The notes under the pieces were generated by a model. That model ran no database searches. It worked only from the letters and a program-made list of their open reading frames with translations, and was not told where the DNA came from. This document shows, in pieces, positions 52,452-60,675 of a DNA stretch of 64,000 nucleotides (positions are counted from its first letter, which is position 1; each line of letters starts with the position of its first letter). The stretch lies in IMG/VR virus record IMGVR_UViG_3300023235_001725. The stretch is one strand, 5' to 3'. The stretch comes from a virus. Taxonomy: Duplodnaviria; Caudoviricetes. The position numbers and the translations under genes were made by a program.

Positions 52452-52523
52452 TCTACAAATGTAATCAATTTTACAAATATAAAAACTGTTCGAAGGGCGG
52501 CCTTTTTCTATCTGTAATTCAAG

Positions 52524-52595
52524 AGGGGCGTAGGGGGTTCGAACCCCTGACGTACAGGGTTAAAGCCTGATGTTCTACCTCTGAACTAACGCCCC
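52524..52595 (-). tRNA. Putative ochre suppressor tRNA (anticodon TTA)
   Basis: GGGGCGT/ACGCCCC acceptor, U73, CAGG-CTTTAAC-CCTG with canonical 7-nt loop, T-loop TTCGAAC. Confidence 0.8.
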
Positions 52596-53554: not shown

Positions 53555-53971
53555 TTAATCCTCGCAAGGCAAGTGACCATATTTATGAAAATACTTTAAT
53601 GGACGTTTCAATTTTCCATTAATCCAAAAACCCCATTTTCGTCGTGGCTTAAACGCTAATACAAATGTCCAGCAAGACACATCTTTAGGAAGCACTACAT
53701 TATGTATATGTTCTGCTTTTCTAAAGCGAATGCTTCCTTGTCTTAACTTATCGATTCCATTTGGGCTTATGTCTAAATAGCCTCCTTTCAGTATGAAAGT
53801 GATAAAATCCCAAGCATGGTCATGCTGGTGCGCGATTGGTTCACTTCTTATGAAGTTGTGAACTCGGAACGAAAATAAGTAGAAATTGAACACCCATCTG
53901 TAAGCATACGGGCAACTTTTTTCACCTAAAGCTTCGTTCCATCTGAACTGAATTGGTCTGAACTTTTTCAT
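53555..53971 (-). CDS. Cupin-like phage protein
   Basis: HQHDHAWDFITFILKGGYL, HIHNV, KWGFW. Confidence 0.7.
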   Translation of the reverse strand: MKKFRPIQFRWNEALGEKSCPYAYRWVFNFYLFSFRVHNFIRSEPIAHQHDHAWDFITFILKGGYLDISPNGIDKLRQGSIRFRKAEHIHNVVLPKDVSCWTFVLAFKPRRKWGFWINGKLKRPLKYFHKYGHLPCED

Positions 53972-54090
53972 TTCTTGATTCGGATTATAGCTGAGGGTAC
54001 AGTTTTGTAATCCTCAACAAATGAATAATCTGGGACCATTGTCACGGAGTAGTTCTTATCTTGAAGCCACTCACGGAATTCTTTGTGCAG

Positions 54091-54480
54091 TTAAGTCTCT
54101 CCAACCATCCAAAAAGGAGATGTTAAGCTTGAGATTGTTCCGCCTGGTGCAAGTTGGTCATACATGTGCATGATGTGTTTGCAATCGACATTGTCTCGAA
54201 AGTTAGGACAGGCAATGACGTAATCATATGGTGTCTGGGCTTCGAATCGGAAGAAGTCTGAGCCAACCAACTCATATTCTTTTTCTTTCAGTGTGACTCG
54301 GCATTCTTGATTAAGTTCTACACAGTCAATTTTACACTGTTGGAATTTTTCTTGAACCCCGTCCGCCAATACTCCTGTGCCTGCAGATGGTTCTAGTATT
54401 CTCGCTCCAGGCTTCGGGTTTAATCTCTCACATAAAGCATCAATCACCACTTGGGGTGTAATTCTGTTTGTCTCTACCAT
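54091..54480 (-). CDS. Short class I SAM-dependent methyltransferase-like protein
   Basis: ILEPSAGTG, DCVELN, DF; CPNF in place of NPPF. Confidence 0.7.
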   Translation of the reverse strand: MVETNRITPQVVIDALCERLNPKPGARILEPSAGTGVLADGVQEKFQQCKIDCVELNQECRVTLKEKEYELVGSDFFRFEAQTPYDYVIACPNFRDNVDCKHIMHMYDQLAPGGTISSLTSPFWMVGET

Positions 54481-55112: not shown

Positions 55113-55192
55113 TGGTGGTGAGGGAAGGACTTGAACCTTCGACCTCCAGGGTTTTAAAGCCTGGTGCTCTGAACCAACTGAGCTACCTCACC
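55113..55192 (-). tRNA. Non-canonical tRNA with 9-nt anticodon loop (CTTTAAAAC), CCA encoded
   Basis: GGTGAGG/CCTCACC, canonical D/T arms, CCAGG-CTTTAAAAC-CCTGG. Confidence 0.7.
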
Positions 55193-55296: not shown

Positions 55297-55332
55297 TTTT
55301 TTAAATTCCAACACGTCAATGAACTTTTGTTG

Positions 55333-55406
55333 TGACAGGAGAAAGATTCGAACTCTCGTCCCCAGGTTTTTAAGGCCTGGTGCTCTAACCGCTGAGCTAT
55401 CCCGTC
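55333..55406 (-). tRNA. Non-canonical tRNA with 9-nt anticodon loop (CCTTAAAAA)
   Basis: GACGGGA/TCCTGTC, CCAGG-CCTTAAAAA-CCTGG, T-loop TTCGAAT. Confidence 0.7.
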
Positions 55407-55506: not shown

Positions 55507-55527
55507 GTGATATGGAAACCTGCATCA

Positions 55528-55947
55528 TCATGCGGCTTCTTTACAATTACAACTCTTGAGAGTTGGTTGATTCGTAAATTCTTTGAAAGCAAGTGGTAGA
55601 CTAGATAACCAACGGGCAGATTCTTTCCCTGGTTCTACGGTAATAGACGTGAACTGGTTGTCGAGGTCAGGCTCCTGGAAGGAACTGAAATTAATACCTT
55701 TTTGCGTGAGTTTGTCTCGGAGCTCGATGAGTTCTTGCTCGTCTTTGACTGATAAGAATCCTAAATATGGATTCGATAACCATTTTTCATAAATGGCTGT
55801 GTATTCTTGATTGAATACGTGGAATGAATGCATTCCTTGAGTTGCCTGCGCTCCAGGAGCGAGGTCTCGTCTTACGACGATGTAAAGCTTTAAGTTTTTC
55901 TTCTCTGTAGAAGGGTGTACTTACTGGTTGTCTAATGCTTTTTTCAT
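55528..55947 (-). CDS. Pth2-like peptidyl-tRNA hydrolase with in-frame TAA at codon 9
   Basis: MKKALDNQ*VHPSTEKKNLKLYIVVRRDLAPGAQATQGMH...LSVKDEQEL...FQEPDL; no ATG/GTG/TTG between TAA (55921-55923) and the YIVVRRDL motif. Confidence 0.7.
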
Positions 55948-56306
55948 GACTCTTATTTTTTGTTTGTTTCTGAACCTACTTCTTCAACTTCCGTGCCATC
56001 TGATATTAGATGTCATTTTGTCAGGCTGTAGAGTTGGCTCTCAATACAATCTACGACAAAGATATAAAAAAGTTTCACTTATTTCAATCTTTTTTTGAAA
56101 ATAAATCATCCGACAGCCCTGAGAAGTCCATTCCCTTTGTGTTTTCAGAGATTTCATCATTACTCTCAAATTCTGTATTTATTGCAACTCCTCTTCTTTT
56201 TTTATACTCGGAACGGACTCTTTTCGTCAGTGTTGTCTGCTCCTAGTCCGCTAACAAGTACCTGACAAAGGAAGCTGCAATACTGGCAGCAATGCGTCTT
56301 TGTTTT

Positions 56307-56600
56307 TTACCAATCATAATTGCTTACCCCGTGAAGGAGTAGGAAGAATAACAACCATCCACCACCACTCTTATCTAGGGAGTATAGAGCGACTGCTCCT
56401 GCAATCAACCCCAAAGGAACTATGTTTTTCTTTAACACTTCCGCGAAAGATTTGTCGTTTTTCGCGCTTGCTTCTGCTTCATCTAGTGCCGCAGCGGTTT
56501 TTTTCCTCAAATCAACAACCGTAGTTGCCTCCGTTTTGAGATTTAATTCATTCAACGCTGATTCCAGCTCTTTGAATTTAGGTCTATTCTTTGCGCTCAT
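56307..56600 (-). CDS. Hypothetical membrane protein
   Basis: C-terminal hydrophobic segments. Confidence 0.65.
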   Translation of the reverse strand: MSAKNRPKFKELESALNELNLKTEATTVVDLRKKTAAALDEAEASAKNDKSFAEVLKKNIVPLGLIAGAVALYSLDKSGGGWLLFFLLLHGVSNYDW

Positions 56601-57054
56601 TTGCTTTTTGTAGTAGGTGTAATGTTATGTCACTCCAGTTTGTAAATCTTTCATCGTGGCCATAATGGATGTGTTCACCACCGTAATCTGGCTGACCGTG
56701 TTCGTTTCCATCATCAACAAGCGCTGCTCCAGAGAGTCTTCCTTTGTAGGATGTAATCGTAAGTTCTTTTAGAAATGATTCCCCAAAGTGTTTTTGGACC
56801 CACATTGCTTTTCCTGTCCAACAGGCATTGTTTCGAATTGAAGGAGCTGTCAGAAATTTAATGTCGTAGTGGTCTTTAAGTTTTTCGTAAGCCTCCATAA
56901 ATCCAAACATAGGGTCAAGATTAATCCAGAAATCCAAATGTGAATGTGGGAACTGTTCATCAGGATGTCTTTTTCGCCACTCTGATGTACCTTTCGCAAA
57001 ATCAACTGCACAATGGTCCATGTCTATGTCTATGATTGGTCTTAAGTTTTTCAT
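56584..57054 (-). CDS. 5'(3')-deoxyribonucleotidase (HAD, NT5C type)
   Basis: IDIDMD, FLTAPS, KAMWVQKHFG, LVDD. Confidence 0.85.
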   Translation of the reverse strand: MKNLRPIIDIDMDHCAVDFAKGTSEWRKRHPDEQFPHSHLDFWINLDPMFGFMEAYEKLKDHYDIKFLTAPSIRNNACWTGKAMWVQKHFGESFLKELTITSYKGRLSGAALVDDGNEHGQPDYGGEHIHYGHDERFTNWSDITLHLLQKANERKE

Positions 57055-59062: not shown

Positions 59063-60583
59063 TTATTCCTTAGTTGCAAGCTCAGCAAAATCAACATAAT
59101 TGTTGATAGTGTTGATAAGCGCTCTTTTGTCGACTTCTAGATTGTCAATGACATCAAAAATCTTTTCAGAGAATCCTCTTAGCGCGAATACGTTCTTCTC
59201 TGGGAACTGCATGCTTCCGCTTGCAGCCAAGTTGAACTCGTAAACTTTACAGTCCTGAGCACCGTACTTCTTCTTGTACGCTGCAAACTGAGTTTTTGGA
59301 GTATTGTACTCCATCCACGCTTGCATGTCCGAGAAGATGAATACACGGTCGTATTTCGCCTTCATCTTAACGAAGATGTCTTGGAAGTTCGTTCCGTGAC
59401 CAACCCTGTACTTGCCAACGTTGCCGTAGCCTTGGTTTGTATCAACAATCCAGTTTGCCATACCCATTACTGAGTCATTCACGTTAACTGGAAGGTACAT
59501 TGCGTGTGTTCCAAACGACATTACATCAGCATCACTAGCCTTGGCCATCATGGCTCCAAATAGAGCTGCCACTTTATTCCTGTAAGTTTTACCTCCAGCA
59601 ATTGGGCAATCCATAGAACCTGACAGGTCAATTACGACTGCAGTGTTTCCATCAAACTTTGGAATGTTAGAACAAGCTAGGTCTACGGCGGTGTTAAGCG
59701 CTCTTTGAACTTTCTTAGACTTTGTTCCAGTCAACACTGTAATCTCGTCGAGTGCAGTGATGTATCTGAATGGAAGAATCAGTGACTTCTTAATTCTTGC
59801 CTCTGTAGTCAACAGCTCGCATGCCTTGTTAAGAACCTCGTCAGAAGCATCTTGGATGATGTTTCTAAGGTTTCTTAGAAGAGCAAACTGTCCAATCTTA
59901 CCTGACATAACCAAGTCAGACCAAGCCTCAGCTTTGTTTGCGGCTTTCTCCTCAGAGGTCTTCGCTCCCTGGCCAGCTGCGGACAGCTTAGACTCGAAAG
60001 TGTTTTCACTCTTTAGGGTTCCAGCAACAAGCTCGGCAAGTGCCTTCTCGTTTCTAGCCGTTCCTTTTGGACGAACCAAGTTTACAACGTCAACAAGCGA
60101 TACTTCATTCTTGTCTCCTCTGTACTTGGCAAGCTGGTATGCATCGAACTTTCCGAAAGCTTTCTTGAAACCTTTCTTTAGCGCGTTTGGCAAAGATGCT
60201 TTCTTACCCTCTCTACCGAAGTAGTAGGACATAATCTCAGTCATGTCGTCTGGACGACGTACAATAGCTGCGTAAAACTCTTTAGCCCAGGCCTTACCTG
60301 AGGCGTGCTTAGCGATTTCACCCGCAAGTACGTGGGTGATAGAACGCATTCCAAACTCGTTACGGGCATAGACAGCCGCCTTTGCTGCGAACTCTGGGTC
60401 CACTTTGCTAAGAACGGATGTCAACTCCTTTATTTGGTCTCCTGCCTTCGAATAGAAGTCATCAGACACAAACGAGTTCAACAGAATCGTCACAAGCTCT
60501 AACTCTGGAGTCGACTTATAAGCCTCTCCTCCCGCTTTGTTGGTAGTCATTTCTACCTTTGATTTTTCGTTAAATTTTGACAT
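59063..60583 (-). CDS. TROVE-domain Ro60-like RNA-binding protein
   Basis: Start MSKFNEK; NKAGGEAY, ARNEFGMRS, FDAYQLAKYR, ALLRNLRN, vWA DLSGSM, FSDMQ, GFSEKIF. Confidence 0.95.
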   Translation of the reverse strand: MSKFNEKSKVEMTTNKAGGEAYKSTPELELVTILLNSFVSDDFYSKAGDQIKELTSVLSKVDPEFAAKAAVYARNEFGMRSITHVLAGEIAKHASGKAWAKEFYAAIVRRPDDMTEIMSYYFGREGKKASLPNALKKGFKKAFGKFDAYQLAKYRGDKNEVSLVDVVNLVRPKGTARNEKALAELVAGTLKSENTFESKLSAAGQGAKTSEEKAANKAEAWSDLVMSGKIGQFALLRNLRNIIQDASDEVLNKACELLTTEARIKKSLILPFRYITALDEITVLTGTKSKKVQRALNTAVDLACSNIPKFDGNTAVVIDLSGSMDCPIAGGKTYRNKVAALFGAMMAKASDADVMSFGTHAMYLPVNVNDSVMGMANWIVDTNQGYGNVGKYRVGHGTNFQDIFVKMKAKYDRVFIFSDMQAWMEYNTPKTQFAAYKKKYGAQDCKVYEFNLAASGSMQFPEKNVFALRGFSEKIFDVIDNLEVDKRALINTINNYVDFAELATKE

Positions 60584-60635
60584 CTCGTCGTTGTTTATAA
60601 TTGTTGTTATTCTATTAATTCTTTGTTTTTGGCGC

Positions 60636-60675
60636 ATAAAAAAAAAGCACCACATCTTTGCAGAGGGTGCTTTTT
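60636..60675 (-). terminator. Terminator-like hairpin between Y-like RNAs and the TROVE start
   Basis: AAAAAGCACC...GGTGCTTTTT with U-run on minus strand. Confidence 0.55.

What the first reader, a model, noticed from the sequence alone, without database searches (positions are those of the whole stretch)
55528..56064. Pth2-like gene that needs UAA read-through, heading the aberrant-tRNA operon
A promoter element (56057-56064) and a 10-codon uORF (MTSNIRWHGS*) precede ATG 55947. Eight codons later a TAA interrupts the frame before the conserved YIVVRRDL motif, with no alternative start. Full-length hydrolase would be made only when termination at UAA fails or the suppressor is present, forming a sensor of release-factor failure analogous to the tRNA attenuators.
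Basis: partly seen in the sequence, partly recalled or inferred. Interest (0 to 1): 0.8.

Follow-up and report, generated by a model that had tools for sequence, protein, structure and literature searches.

The report
Ochre-gated phage Pth2-like gene
A huge salt-lake phage keeps a deliberate UAA stop at codon 9 of a peptidyl-tRNA-hydrolase-like gene (and a second one inside a neighbouring methyltransferase gene) in the same gene run as its own UAA-reading tRNA, so these proteins are most likely made only while that tRNA overrides the stop signal.

Summary
On the minus strand, ATG 55947 opens eight codons, then TAA (55921-55923). The same frame runs on into a Pth2-fold domain and ends at TGA TGA. 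No ATG, GTG or TTG lies between the TAA and the domain.

- **Not a private mutation.** All five distinct close relatives (65-82% identical) keep the same ATG, the same TAA and the same frame, with synonymous changes on both sides.
- **Family-wide.** In about 80 more distant phage copies the gene likewise opens with ATG, 1-8 codons, then an in-frame stop.
- **Stop matches tRNA.** In those copies the stop is nearly always TAG, and a tRNA with anticodon CUA lies in the same locus. Here it is TAA, and the phage carries a canonical UUA-anticodon tRNA (52523-52595), co-oriented 3.3 kb downstream.
- **Second client.** A methyltransferase gene in the same run has a conserved TAA at codon 130 of 170. 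Relatives read straight through that position.
- **Not recoding.** TAA still ends 35 of 62 long ORFs in the window.

Best reading: a suppressor-tRNA-gated gene, with no experimental test yet. The "release-factor-failure sensor" idea is untested. This scan found the same module before on other DNA, including ochre versions. I found no published description.

The parts
56059..56087 (-). sigma-70-like promoter: -35 TTGAAA (56082-56087), 17-nt spacer, -10 TATCTT (56059-56064)
   Evidence: 9 of 12 matches. Kept as TTGAMA, 17-18 nt, TAYCTT in L001, L003, L004 and L006. Function is inferred.
55984..56016 (-). 10-codon uORF MTSNIRWHGS*; not conserved, so probably not part of the mechanism
   Evidence: Present in the window and L004/L005 only.
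55921..55947 (-). leader of the Pth2-like ORF: ATG plus 7 codons (MKKALDNQ), then the in-frame TAA at 55921-55923
   Evidence: The ATG, the frame and the TAA are invariant in 5 distinct relatives. Pairwise codon differences are 19 synonymous and 12 non-synonymous. The A-rich upstream context is the same as at other starts in this window.
55528..55920 (-). post-stop part of the ORF: disordered linker VHPSTEKKN, then the Pth2-fold domain; ends TGA (55528-55530), followed by a second TGA (55525-55527)
   Evidence: Pfam PTH2, 29.4 bits against a cut-off of 23. Profile match to PDB Pth2 chains, E 1e-11. AlphaFold model pLDDT 90.3. Foldseek top 14 matches are all Pth2/Bit1 entries.
55891..55923 (-). 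possible small hairpin that pairs the stop codon (UAAGU) with ACUUA, around an inner CUUCU/AGAAG stem; unproven
   Evidence: predicted, with no covariation. It lies in the stretch with 93% third-position identity, against 72-75% in the domain.
53968..54480 (-). second client gene: small SAM-methyltransferase-like ORF with an in-frame TAA at 54091-54093 (codon 130 of 170); ends TGA
   Evidence: The TAA and the 40-codon tail are kept in L001, L002 and L006. Seven close protein clusters are cut at 129 aa. Five full-length relatives read through that column (T/D/P/P/E).
52523..52595 (-). ochre suppressor tRNA: 7-nt anticodon loop CU-UUA-AC, U73, no encoded CCA
   Evidence: ARAGORN and Rfam tRNA, 66.2 bits. 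It is 90% identical to the copy in L001, with compensatory changes in the acceptor stem.

Best explanation
The TAA at codon 9 is a programmed gate.

Ribosomes start at ATG 55947 and make MKKALDNQ. At the UAA they either terminate, which is the default outcome through the host release factors, or accept the phage's own ochre-suppressor tRNA (anticodon UUA, 52523-52595). In the second case they continue in frame through a disordered linker into the Pth2-fold domain.

Output of the hydrolase-like enzyme is therefore tied to how well the phage suppressor tRNA competes with release factors. The same holds for the methyltransferase 1.4 kb downstream, which has its own TAA.

Because TAA also ends most genes of this phage, suppression is probably weak or short-lived, so the gate also keeps expression low.

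**Shown:**
- the conserved stop;
- the lack of another start;
- the cognate tRNA in the same co-oriented gene run;
- the family-wide match of stop and anticodon;
- a second gated gene;
- the Pth2 fold.

**Inferred:**
- that the tRNA is expressed, charged and decodes these two codons;
- that the enzyme hydrolyses an (amino/peptidyl-)acyl-tRNA;
- the purpose of the coupling.
For: 1. **Stop kept in the clade.** The TAA, the ATG and the frame are invariant in 5 distinct relatives at 65-82% protein identity, with synonymous changes before and after the stop.
2. **No other start.** No ATG, GTG or TTG lies after the TAA. The internal Met that gene callers used is Val in L006. This phage's genes start at ATG behind A-rich, SD-less leaders, and ATG 55947 has that context.
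3. **Family-wide layout.**
   - Metagenome loci plus five phage-database records: 66 have a TAG leader gate, 9 a TAA leader gate and 3 an internal TAG.
   - IMG/VR replicate set: 15 more TAG leader gates.
4. **Stop matches tRNA.** 48 of 69 TAG-gated loci hold a CUA-anticodon tRNA within the fetched few kb. The TAA-gated loci hold no CUA tRNA, and the two that are long enough (the window and L001) hold a UUA tRNA. No locus is mismatched.
5. **Gates where restarting cannot help.**
   - TAA at codon 130 of 170 of the methyltransferase, with full-length relatives reading through.
   - TAG inside the Pth2 domain in L076, L080, L086 and L100.
6. **The gated codon is avoided as terminator.** TAG-gated genes end in TAG in 1 of 62 cases, against 10% of neighbouring long ORFs (binomial p 0.009). 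Both TAA-gated genes here end in TGA, the one stop a UUA anticodon cannot read.
7. **Purine after the stop.** The base after the stop is a purine in all but one leader gate. From memory of Bossi 1983 and Miller & Albertini 1983, that is the classical favourable context for tRNA suppression.
8. **Tolerant position.** The suppressed position lies in a segment modelled as disordered (residues 1-10, pLDDT about 57), so any inserted residue should be tolerated.
Against: - Nothing is experimental. No RNA run holds the locus, and there are no proteomics data.
- TAA ends 35 of 62 long ORFs here, and TAG ends 10 more. A UUA anticodon also reads TAG by wobble. An efficient suppressor would extend most phage proteins by a median of 21 codons, so suppression must be weak or tightly timed.
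- The TAA/UUA match rests on one clade (the window and L001), that is, on one evolutionary event. Two other TAA-gated loci (L012, L033) show no tRNA in the DNA I hold, and their genes also end in TAA.
- In Bxz1 and Myrna a GTG follows the TAG directly. In most loci the next codon is AUU, GUU, AUA or GUA, so restarting after a mini-ORF is not excluded for leader gates.
- The methyltransferase TAA is followed by C, not a purine.
Confidence: 0.7

Rival explanations
1. Mini-ORF plus restart. MKKALDNQ* is a regulatory minigene. After terminating at UAA, the ribosome restarts at the next codon (GUA here; AUU, GUU, AUA or GUG in relatives) and makes the hydrolase without any read-through. The minigene would tune expression, perhaps through peptidyl-tRNA drop-off as with the lambda bar minigenes.
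For: The codon after the stop is ATT, GTT, ATA, GTA or GTG in most loci. In Bxz1 and Myrna it is the annotated GTG start, right after ATG-TAG or GTG-TAG. Leaders are very short, mostly 2-4 codons. L007 has its own ATG nine codons after the TAG.
Against: - It does not explain why the stop matches the anticodon of the neighbouring tRNA.
- It does not explain the gates deep inside coding sequence: methyltransferase codon 130, and TAG inside the Pth2 domain in L076, L080, L086 and L100.
- The next codon is GGA, GGT, AAT, AAC, GCA, GAA, GGC or CTT in several loci.
- Ile and Val exchange like an amino-acid constraint, and VTN recurs in both AT-rich and GC-rich phages.
- GUA is not a known start codon, and this phage starts its genes at ATG.
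Confidence: 0.12
2. Sensor of release-factor failure without a dedicated tRNA (the other half of the first reader's idea). The UAA is read through by near-cognate host tRNAs only when termination is impaired, which switches on the hydrolase as a rescue factor.
For: The logic resembles prfB, where an early in-frame stop reports termination capacity. Suppression by any tRNA is a competition with release factors, so output must rise if they fail (established kinetics). The window holds other translation-repair genes: a Ro60-like gene and tRNA-like RNAs.
Against: From general knowledge, UAA is the least leaky stop. The family-wide pairing with a cognate suppressor tRNA, and the switch to TAA exactly where the tRNA is UUA, would be coincidences. 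No attenuator structure was found.
Confidence: 0.1
3. Decay or artefact: a nonsense mutation in a dying gene, an assembly error, or genome-wide reassignment of TAA to a sense codon.
For: Gene callers cut all these genes to 101 aa. One related contig was called with another genetic code.
Against: - The stop is invariant across five lineages under purifying selection.
- The sequence is identical in contigs of four runs.
- TAA is the commonest terminator of normal-length genes, 35 of 62.
- Only two in-frame TAA cases were found in 64 kb.
Confidence: 0.03

Closest known systems
Stop-codon-recoded phages with phage-encoded suppressor tRNAs (TAG to Gln 'code 15', TGA to Trp 'code 4'; bioRxiv 10.1101/2021.08.26.457843, PMC7886860, PMC9523058)
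   Same: A phage-encoded suppressor tRNA decodes in-frame stops in phage genes. The arrangement has been proposed to time translation of a subset of genes.
   Different: - This genome uses the standard code, and TAA is its main terminator.
- Only two genes, in the tRNA's own gene run, carry the stop.
- The stop sits at the very start of the ORF, like a switch.
- The codon is TAA. The preprint I read discusses reassignment only of TAG and TGA.
prfB (RF2) autoregulation through an early in-frame UGA
   Same: A translation-factor-like gene carries an early in-frame stop, so its output depends on competition with termination at that codon.
   Different: prfB needs a +1 frameshift at a slippery site with an SD-like stimulator, and it reports its own product. 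Here the frame is unchanged, the decoder is a separate tRNA gene, and feedback by the product is unknown.
Programmed read-through in viruses (Q-beta A1 at UGA, MuLV gag-pol at UAG, tobamovirus replicase)
   Same: An in-frame stop is partly read through to give the functional downstream product.
   Different: Those systems use host near-cognate tRNAs and make two useful proteins. Here the virus brings its own cognate suppressor tRNA, and the product of termination is only an 8-residue peptide.
Lambda bar minigenes and Pth (2-3-codon ORFs whose peptidyl-tRNA drop-off is toxic when Pth is limiting; from memory)
   Same: A very short ORF in a phage is functionally linked to peptidyl-tRNA hydrolase biology.
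   Different: The bar minigenes are free-standing and act on host Pth1. Here the mini-ORF is in frame with, and fused by read-through to, a phage Pth2-like gene.
Archaeal/eukaryotic peptidyl-tRNA hydrolase 2 (PF01981; PDB 2zv3, 3erj, 1xty, 1wn2, human Bit1 1q7s)
   Same: The fold and the sequence family are shared. The motifs D-L, Q..H-A and the T in the last strand are kept.
   Different: The phage family has a two-residue deletion at the G-K motif (window: P-G-A-Q) and E-P-D in place of D-A-G. Substrate and activity are untested. The gene is always linked to suppressor tRNAs.
The same module noted earlier by this scan on other DNA (amber versions e1-933198, e1-5322690, e1-5351193; ochre versions in salt-lake phages e1-5318356, e1-5318540)
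   Same: A Pth2-like gene with an early in-frame stop lies beside a cognate suppressor tRNA. An ochre tRNA with two client genes was also noted.
   Different: Those are unpublished AI notes. Here the calls were re-derived independently on this window, with a stop-versus-anticodon table, a terminator-avoidance test and an IMG/VR replicate set.

Membership tests
Pth2 (PF01981) peptidyl-tRNA hydrolase family | Sequence match to the family model above the curated cut-off | tested here: met
   Pfam PTH2 scores 29.4 bits against a cut-off of 23; residues 10-101 match profile positions 1-103 of 115. The family profile A4 hits PDB Pth2 chains at E 1.4e-11 to 2e-5.
Pth2 (PF01981) peptidyl-tRNA hydrolase family | Pth2 alpha/beta fold | tested here: met
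   The AlphaFold model has pLDDT 90.3. The Foldseek top 14 are all Pth2/Bit1 entries: probability 1.0, target-normalised TM 0.68-0.76 for the top 13 and 0.52 for the NMR entry 1rzw.
Pth2 (PF01981) peptidyl-tRNA hydrolase family | Catalytic residues of archaeal Pth2 (the Lys of the G-K motif and the Asp of D-A-G, as I recall from work on the Sulfolobus enzyme) | tested here: inconclusive
   In the HMM alignment to 2zv3, the G-K motif falls at a two-residue deletion, and the window has Ala there. D-A-G aligns with the invariant E83-P-D85. Family invariants are R17, D19, H31, W47, F81, E83, D85 and T91. Which residues are catalytic is recalled from memory, not checked here.
Pth2 (PF01981) peptidyl-tRNA hydrolase family | Hydrolysis of peptidyl-tRNA | not testable with these tools
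   This needs an enzyme assay.
Suppressor-tRNA-gated gene (programmed stop decoded by a virus-encoded cognate tRNA) | An in-frame stop conserved among relatives under coding selection on both sides | tested here: met
Suppressor-tRNA-gated gene (programmed stop decoded by a virus-encoded cognate tRNA) | A cognate suppressor tRNA encoded by the same element, with its anticodon matching the stop | tested here: met
   The UUA tRNA lies at 52523-52595. Table of 47 TAG/CUA, 2 TAA/UUA and 0 mismatches. The TAA cases are one clade.
Suppressor-tRNA-gated gene (programmed stop decoded by a virus-encoded cognate tRNA) | The tRNA is expressed and charged, and it inserts a residue at the stop | not testable with these tools
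   No RNA holder is listed, and there are no proteomics data.
Stop-codon-reassigned phage genome (alternative genetic code) | The reassigned codon is rare as a terminator and frequent inside genes; coding density is low under code 11 | tested here: not met
   TAA ends 35 of 62 long ORFs. Under code 11 the window reads as a dense run of long ORFs. Only two in-frame TAA cases were found.
prfB-type frameshift autoregulation | The downstream part lies in the +1 frame, behind a slippery site and an SD-like stimulator | tested here: not met
   The upstream and downstream parts are in the same frame in every locus.
Leader-peptide transcription attenuator | Alternative terminator and antiterminator hairpins downstream of the leader ORF | tested here: not met
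   No terminator-like site lies on the minus strand between the leader and the domain. There is only a weak hairpin without covariation.

The most novel reading that the evidence does not exclude
The Pth2-like enzyme and the suppressor tRNA form a self-limiting read-through controller. The enzyme is made only through suppression, and in turn it strips the amino acid or peptide from the suppressor tRNA, or from the tRNA-like RNAs encoded next to it. That would cap stop-codon read-through at a low set point in a genome that ends most genes in TAA.

This would explain why the enzyme gene sits beside a suppressor tRNA even in relatives that lack the gate.
Probability: 0.15. Interest if true: 0.88.

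Novelty: new variant of a known kind. Interest (0 to 1): 0.72.

Why it matters
- **Targets for orphan tRNAs.** Phage suppressor tRNAs in standard-code genomes have had no known targets. The authors of the XacN1 genome paper say they could not find any (PMC5852040). This locus gives an ochre suppressor tRNA two concrete client genes.
- **A natural test of the idea.** The ochre version is a compensatory-change test of the amber-gate idea: where the tRNA reads UAA, the gate is TAA.
- **What it would be, if confirmed.** It would be a natural gene-specific translational switch built from a stop codon and a private tRNA. It is of interest for translation control, for how genetic-code changes begin, and as a part for synthetic biology.
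- **A tractable system exists.** About 200 cultured Mycobacterium phages of the Bxz1/Myrna group carry the amber version, so bench tests are feasible.

Tried and rejected
- **DNA similarity to known phages.** blastn of the locus against the phage collection gave no match.
- **First viral-contig scan.** The scan with the single protein confirmed no relative.
- **Whole genome.** None is held for this window, and the contig behind L012 could not be searched. I therefore could not look for a UUA tRNA beside the independent TAA gates of L012 and L033, nor for more TAA-gated genes outside the 64-kb window.
- **Expression.** No RNA holder is listed for the locus. The laid runs are DNA contigs and show only that the sequence is reproduced.
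- **tRNA ancestry.** An alignment of the UUA tRNA with 35 CUA tRNAs was too divergent to show common descent or amino-acid identity. Discriminator bases are mixed: A, U and G.
- **The two 9-nt-loop tRNAs after the gene (55332-55406, 55113-55192).** I considered them as the decoders. Their loops vary among relatives (NTTAAAAA, GTTAAAAC, GTCAAACA), so I left them out of the model.
- **Other TAA-ended ORFs with long open extensions.** In the case I read (12320), the open extension holds the next gene, with its own ATG, in the same frame.
- **Stop context.** The base after ordinary TAA terminators is A 17, G 7, T 6, C 5. That does not set them apart from the two gated TAAs, which have G and C.
- **RNA structure at the stop.** A hairpin is predicted, but with no covariation.
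- **Literature.** Five full-text searches found no description of a stop-gated Pth2-like gene.
- **XacN1.** It did not appear among the tblastn hits, so its Pth gene is probably of another type.

Full report
**What the window is.** The 64-kb window is a dense, mostly minus-strand stretch of a very large uncultured phage.
- The truncated product of the gene in question was seen on a 447-kb contig.
- The locus occurs letter for letter in about 20 salt-lake metagenome runs.
- It reads well under the standard bacterial code. TAA ends 35 of 62 non-overlapping long ORFs, TGA 17 and TAG 10.
- Only 2 of 39 genes have an SD-like motif, and leaders are 46% A. This points to SD-independent initiation at ATG.
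- The window holds 15 tRNA genes, among them a canonical tRNA with anticodon UUA at 52523-52595.

**The observation.** On the minus strand ATG 55947 is followed by AAA AAA GCA TTA GAC AAC CAG and then TAA (55923-55921).
- The same frame continues VHPSTEKKNLKLYIVVRRDL... for 130 codons and ends TGA TGA.
- The post-stop part is a Pth2-family domain:
  - Pfam PTH2 scores 29.4 bits against a cut-off of 23, starting at residue 10.
  - A family profile hits archaeal Pth2 structures at E 1e-11.
  - The AlphaFold model (pLDDT 90.3) finds only Pth2/Bit1 entries among its 14 best PDB matches.
- The first ten post-stop residues are modelled as disordered. The stop therefore lies in an N-terminal tail, not in the fold.
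- No ATG, GTG or TTG lies between the TAA and the first strand.
- The promoter-like site is real and conserved. The 10-codon uORF is present in only two of the five lineages.

**It is not a private mutation.** Five distinct relatives (L001/L002, L003, L004/L005, L006; 65-82% protein identity) all read ATG AAA AAR RCN YTA GAY MAY CAG TAA GTA CAY CCT TCT.
- The ATG, the frame and the TAA are invariant.
- The eight leader codons show more synonymous than non-synonymous pairwise differences (19 against 12).
- The Met that gene callers used as the start is Val in L006.
- The nine codons after the stop are unusually conserved even at third positions (93% against 72-75% in the domain). They can form a small hairpin that pairs the stop codon, but nothing covaries. 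I leave that as a lead.

**The family-wide pattern.** A metagenome scan gave 80 loci, an IMG/VR scan gave 26, and the phage database added huge-phage genomes of up to 735 kb, Tenacibaculum phage pT24 and about 200 Mycobacterium phages.
- In 66 of the metagenome and database loci the Pth2-like frame has no start of its own. Instead there is ATG, 1-7 codons, TAG, 7-14 codons, then the (K)LxxVTRRDL strand.
- Nine loci have TAA in that place. Three have a TAG inside the domain.
- IMG/VR added 15 more TAG leader gates and one more internal TAG.
- GC-rich, probably cellular, relatives start with an ordinary Met right before KLY.
- The base after the stop is a purine in all leader gates but one.

**The link to suppressor tRNAs.**
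- ARAGORN finds a tRNA with anticodon CUA in the same few kb, on the same strand, in 48 of 69 TAG-gated loci. It often begins within 10-50 nt of the gene's end.
- In the IMG/VR set the figure is 12 of 15.
- The TAA-gated loci hold no CUA tRNA. The two that are long enough (the window and L001) hold a UUA tRNA. No locus is mismatched (Fisher p 0.0009).
- The two TAA cases are one clade, so this is one evolutionary switch, not two.
- The UUA tRNA is itself conserved: 90% identity between the window and L001, with compensatory acceptor-stem changes.
- Ungated copies of the gene also sit beside CUA tRNAs (L021, L072, L081, L087, L099, L110, L112, L113, L115-L118). The partnership between enzyme and suppressor tRNA is therefore wider than the gate.

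**A second client gene.** In the same gene run, 1.4 kb downstream, a small SAM-methyltransferase-like ORF (54480 to 53968) has TAA at codon 130 (54091-54093). Forty in-frame codons follow and end in an ATGA overlap with the next gene.
- The TAA and the tail are kept in L001, L002 and L006.
- Seven close protein clusters in the database are cut at exactly 129 residues.
- Five more distant relatives of 172-250 residues run straight through, with T, D, P, P or E at that column and a well-conserved tail.
- Restarting translation cannot rescue a stop three quarters of the way into a domain, so decoding is required here.
- I found no further convincing in-frame TAA in the window.

**Terminator choice.**
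- TAG-gated Pth2-like genes end in TAG in only 1 of 62 distinct sequences. Yet 10% of neighbouring long ORFs end in TAG (p 0.009). This also shows that those phages still use TAG as a stop.
- Both gated genes of this window, and the Pth2-like genes of all four clade relatives, end in TGA, here doubled. By established wobble rules, TGA is the only stop a UUA anticodon cannot read.

**Mechanism.** The best-supported reading is a suppressor-tRNA gate. Initiation at ATG 55947 gives an 8-residue peptide unless the phage ochre tRNA wins against the release factors at UAA. The Pth2-like enzyme and the methyltransferase are then made in proportion to suppressor activity.
- TAA and TAG end 45 of 62 genes, and read-through would add a median of 21 codons. 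Suppression is therefore probably weak or brief, and the gate sets a low, tRNA-dependent level.
- Why this enzyme is coupled to the tRNA is inference. It may clear by-products of read-through, or it may act on the suppressor tRNA itself as a brake.
- The main rival is a mini-ORF followed by a restart at the next codon. It is suggested by AUU, GUU, AUA or GUA after most stops and by GTG in Bxz1 and Myrna. It cannot explain the anticodon match, the internal gates or the several non-start codons after the stop.
- A pure release-factor-failure sensor, a pseudogene and genome-wide recoding are weaker still.

**Known or new.** Phage suppressor tRNAs that decode in-frame stops are known from recoded phages. 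The authors of the XacN1 genome state that they could not find targets for its CUA tRNAs. Five full-text searches found no description of a stop-gated Pth2-like gene.
- This scan has already noted the module on other DNA several times, including ochre versions in salt-lake phages. I re-derived the evidence here independently.
- I file it as a new variant of a known kind: a gene-specific gate, with the ochre codon, in a standard-code phage.

**Limits.**
- There is no expression, charging or protein evidence.
- The complete genome was not available.
- The TAA/UUA match rests on a single clade.
- Catalytic competence of the divergent Pth2-like domain is unknown. The G-K motif is lost, and E-P-D stands in place of D-A-G.

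Noticed in passing
window 53968-54480 (-), TAA at 54091-54093: A small methyltransferase-like gene has a conserved in-frame TAA at codon 130 of 170. It carries a (C/A)P(N/P/T)(F/Y) motif of the amino-methyltransferase type. Its target is unknown: DNA, rRNA, tRNA or a release factor.
   Followed up: yes
window 55332-55406 and 55113-55192 (-); L001 2536-2610; L004 934-1008 and 1152-1230; L003 1619-1697: Two tRNAs with 9-nt anticodon loops lie directly after the Pth2-like gene. That is the position where relatives have the CUA suppressor tRNA. The loop letters differ among relatives (NTTAAAAA; GTTAAAAC or GTCAAACA), so what they read is unclear.
   Followed up: partly
L027, L040, L048, L050-L052, L057, L061, L094, L103, L105-L107: A tRNA-Cys(GCA) gene very often sits a few bases 5' of the CUA suppressor tRNA. 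L105 has four Cys genes before it. The window's UUA tRNA has U73, the discriminator base of Cys and Gly tRNAs.
   Followed up: no
L018, L072, L083, L097, L114, L116 and other ungated relatives: Ungated Pth2-like genes end in TAG unusually often: 6 of 18 in the metagenome set. L072 has two TAGs six codons apart and a CUA tRNA right after them. This may be C-terminal extension by read-through.
   Followed up: no
window 55531-55536 (-) and relatives P0003-P0018: The window clade and the GC-rich relatives all end in Ala-Ala (KEAA, RAA, SAA, KAA). This recalls the end of the ssrA degradation tag and may mark the protein for ClpXP-type turnover.
   Followed up: no
window 55891-55920 (-): The nine codons after the TAA are 93% identical at third positions among five relatives, against 72-75% in the domain. 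A hairpin that pairs the stop codon is predicted, without covariation.
   Followed up: partly
L092 (Mycobacterium phage Bxz1, gp154) and L093 (Myrna, gp84): These cultured phages carry the amber version as ATG-TAG-GTG and GTG-TAG-GTG. A CUA tRNA lies 130-310 nt downstream; in Bxz1 it is annotated 'tRNA-OTHER'. About 200 cluster-C phages share the gene.
   Followed up: partly
window, upstream of 39 gene starts: Only 2 of 39 genes have an SD-like motif, and the 20 nt before starts are 46% A. This suggests a host with SD-independent initiation, such as Bacteroidota.
   Followed up: partly
window 59063-60655 (-) and 56584-57054 (-): A Ro60/TROVE-like RNA-binding gene and an NT5C-like nucleotidase gene lie just upstream of the operon. 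An NT5C-like gene also lies near the Pth2-like gene on the contig of P0009.
   Followed up: no
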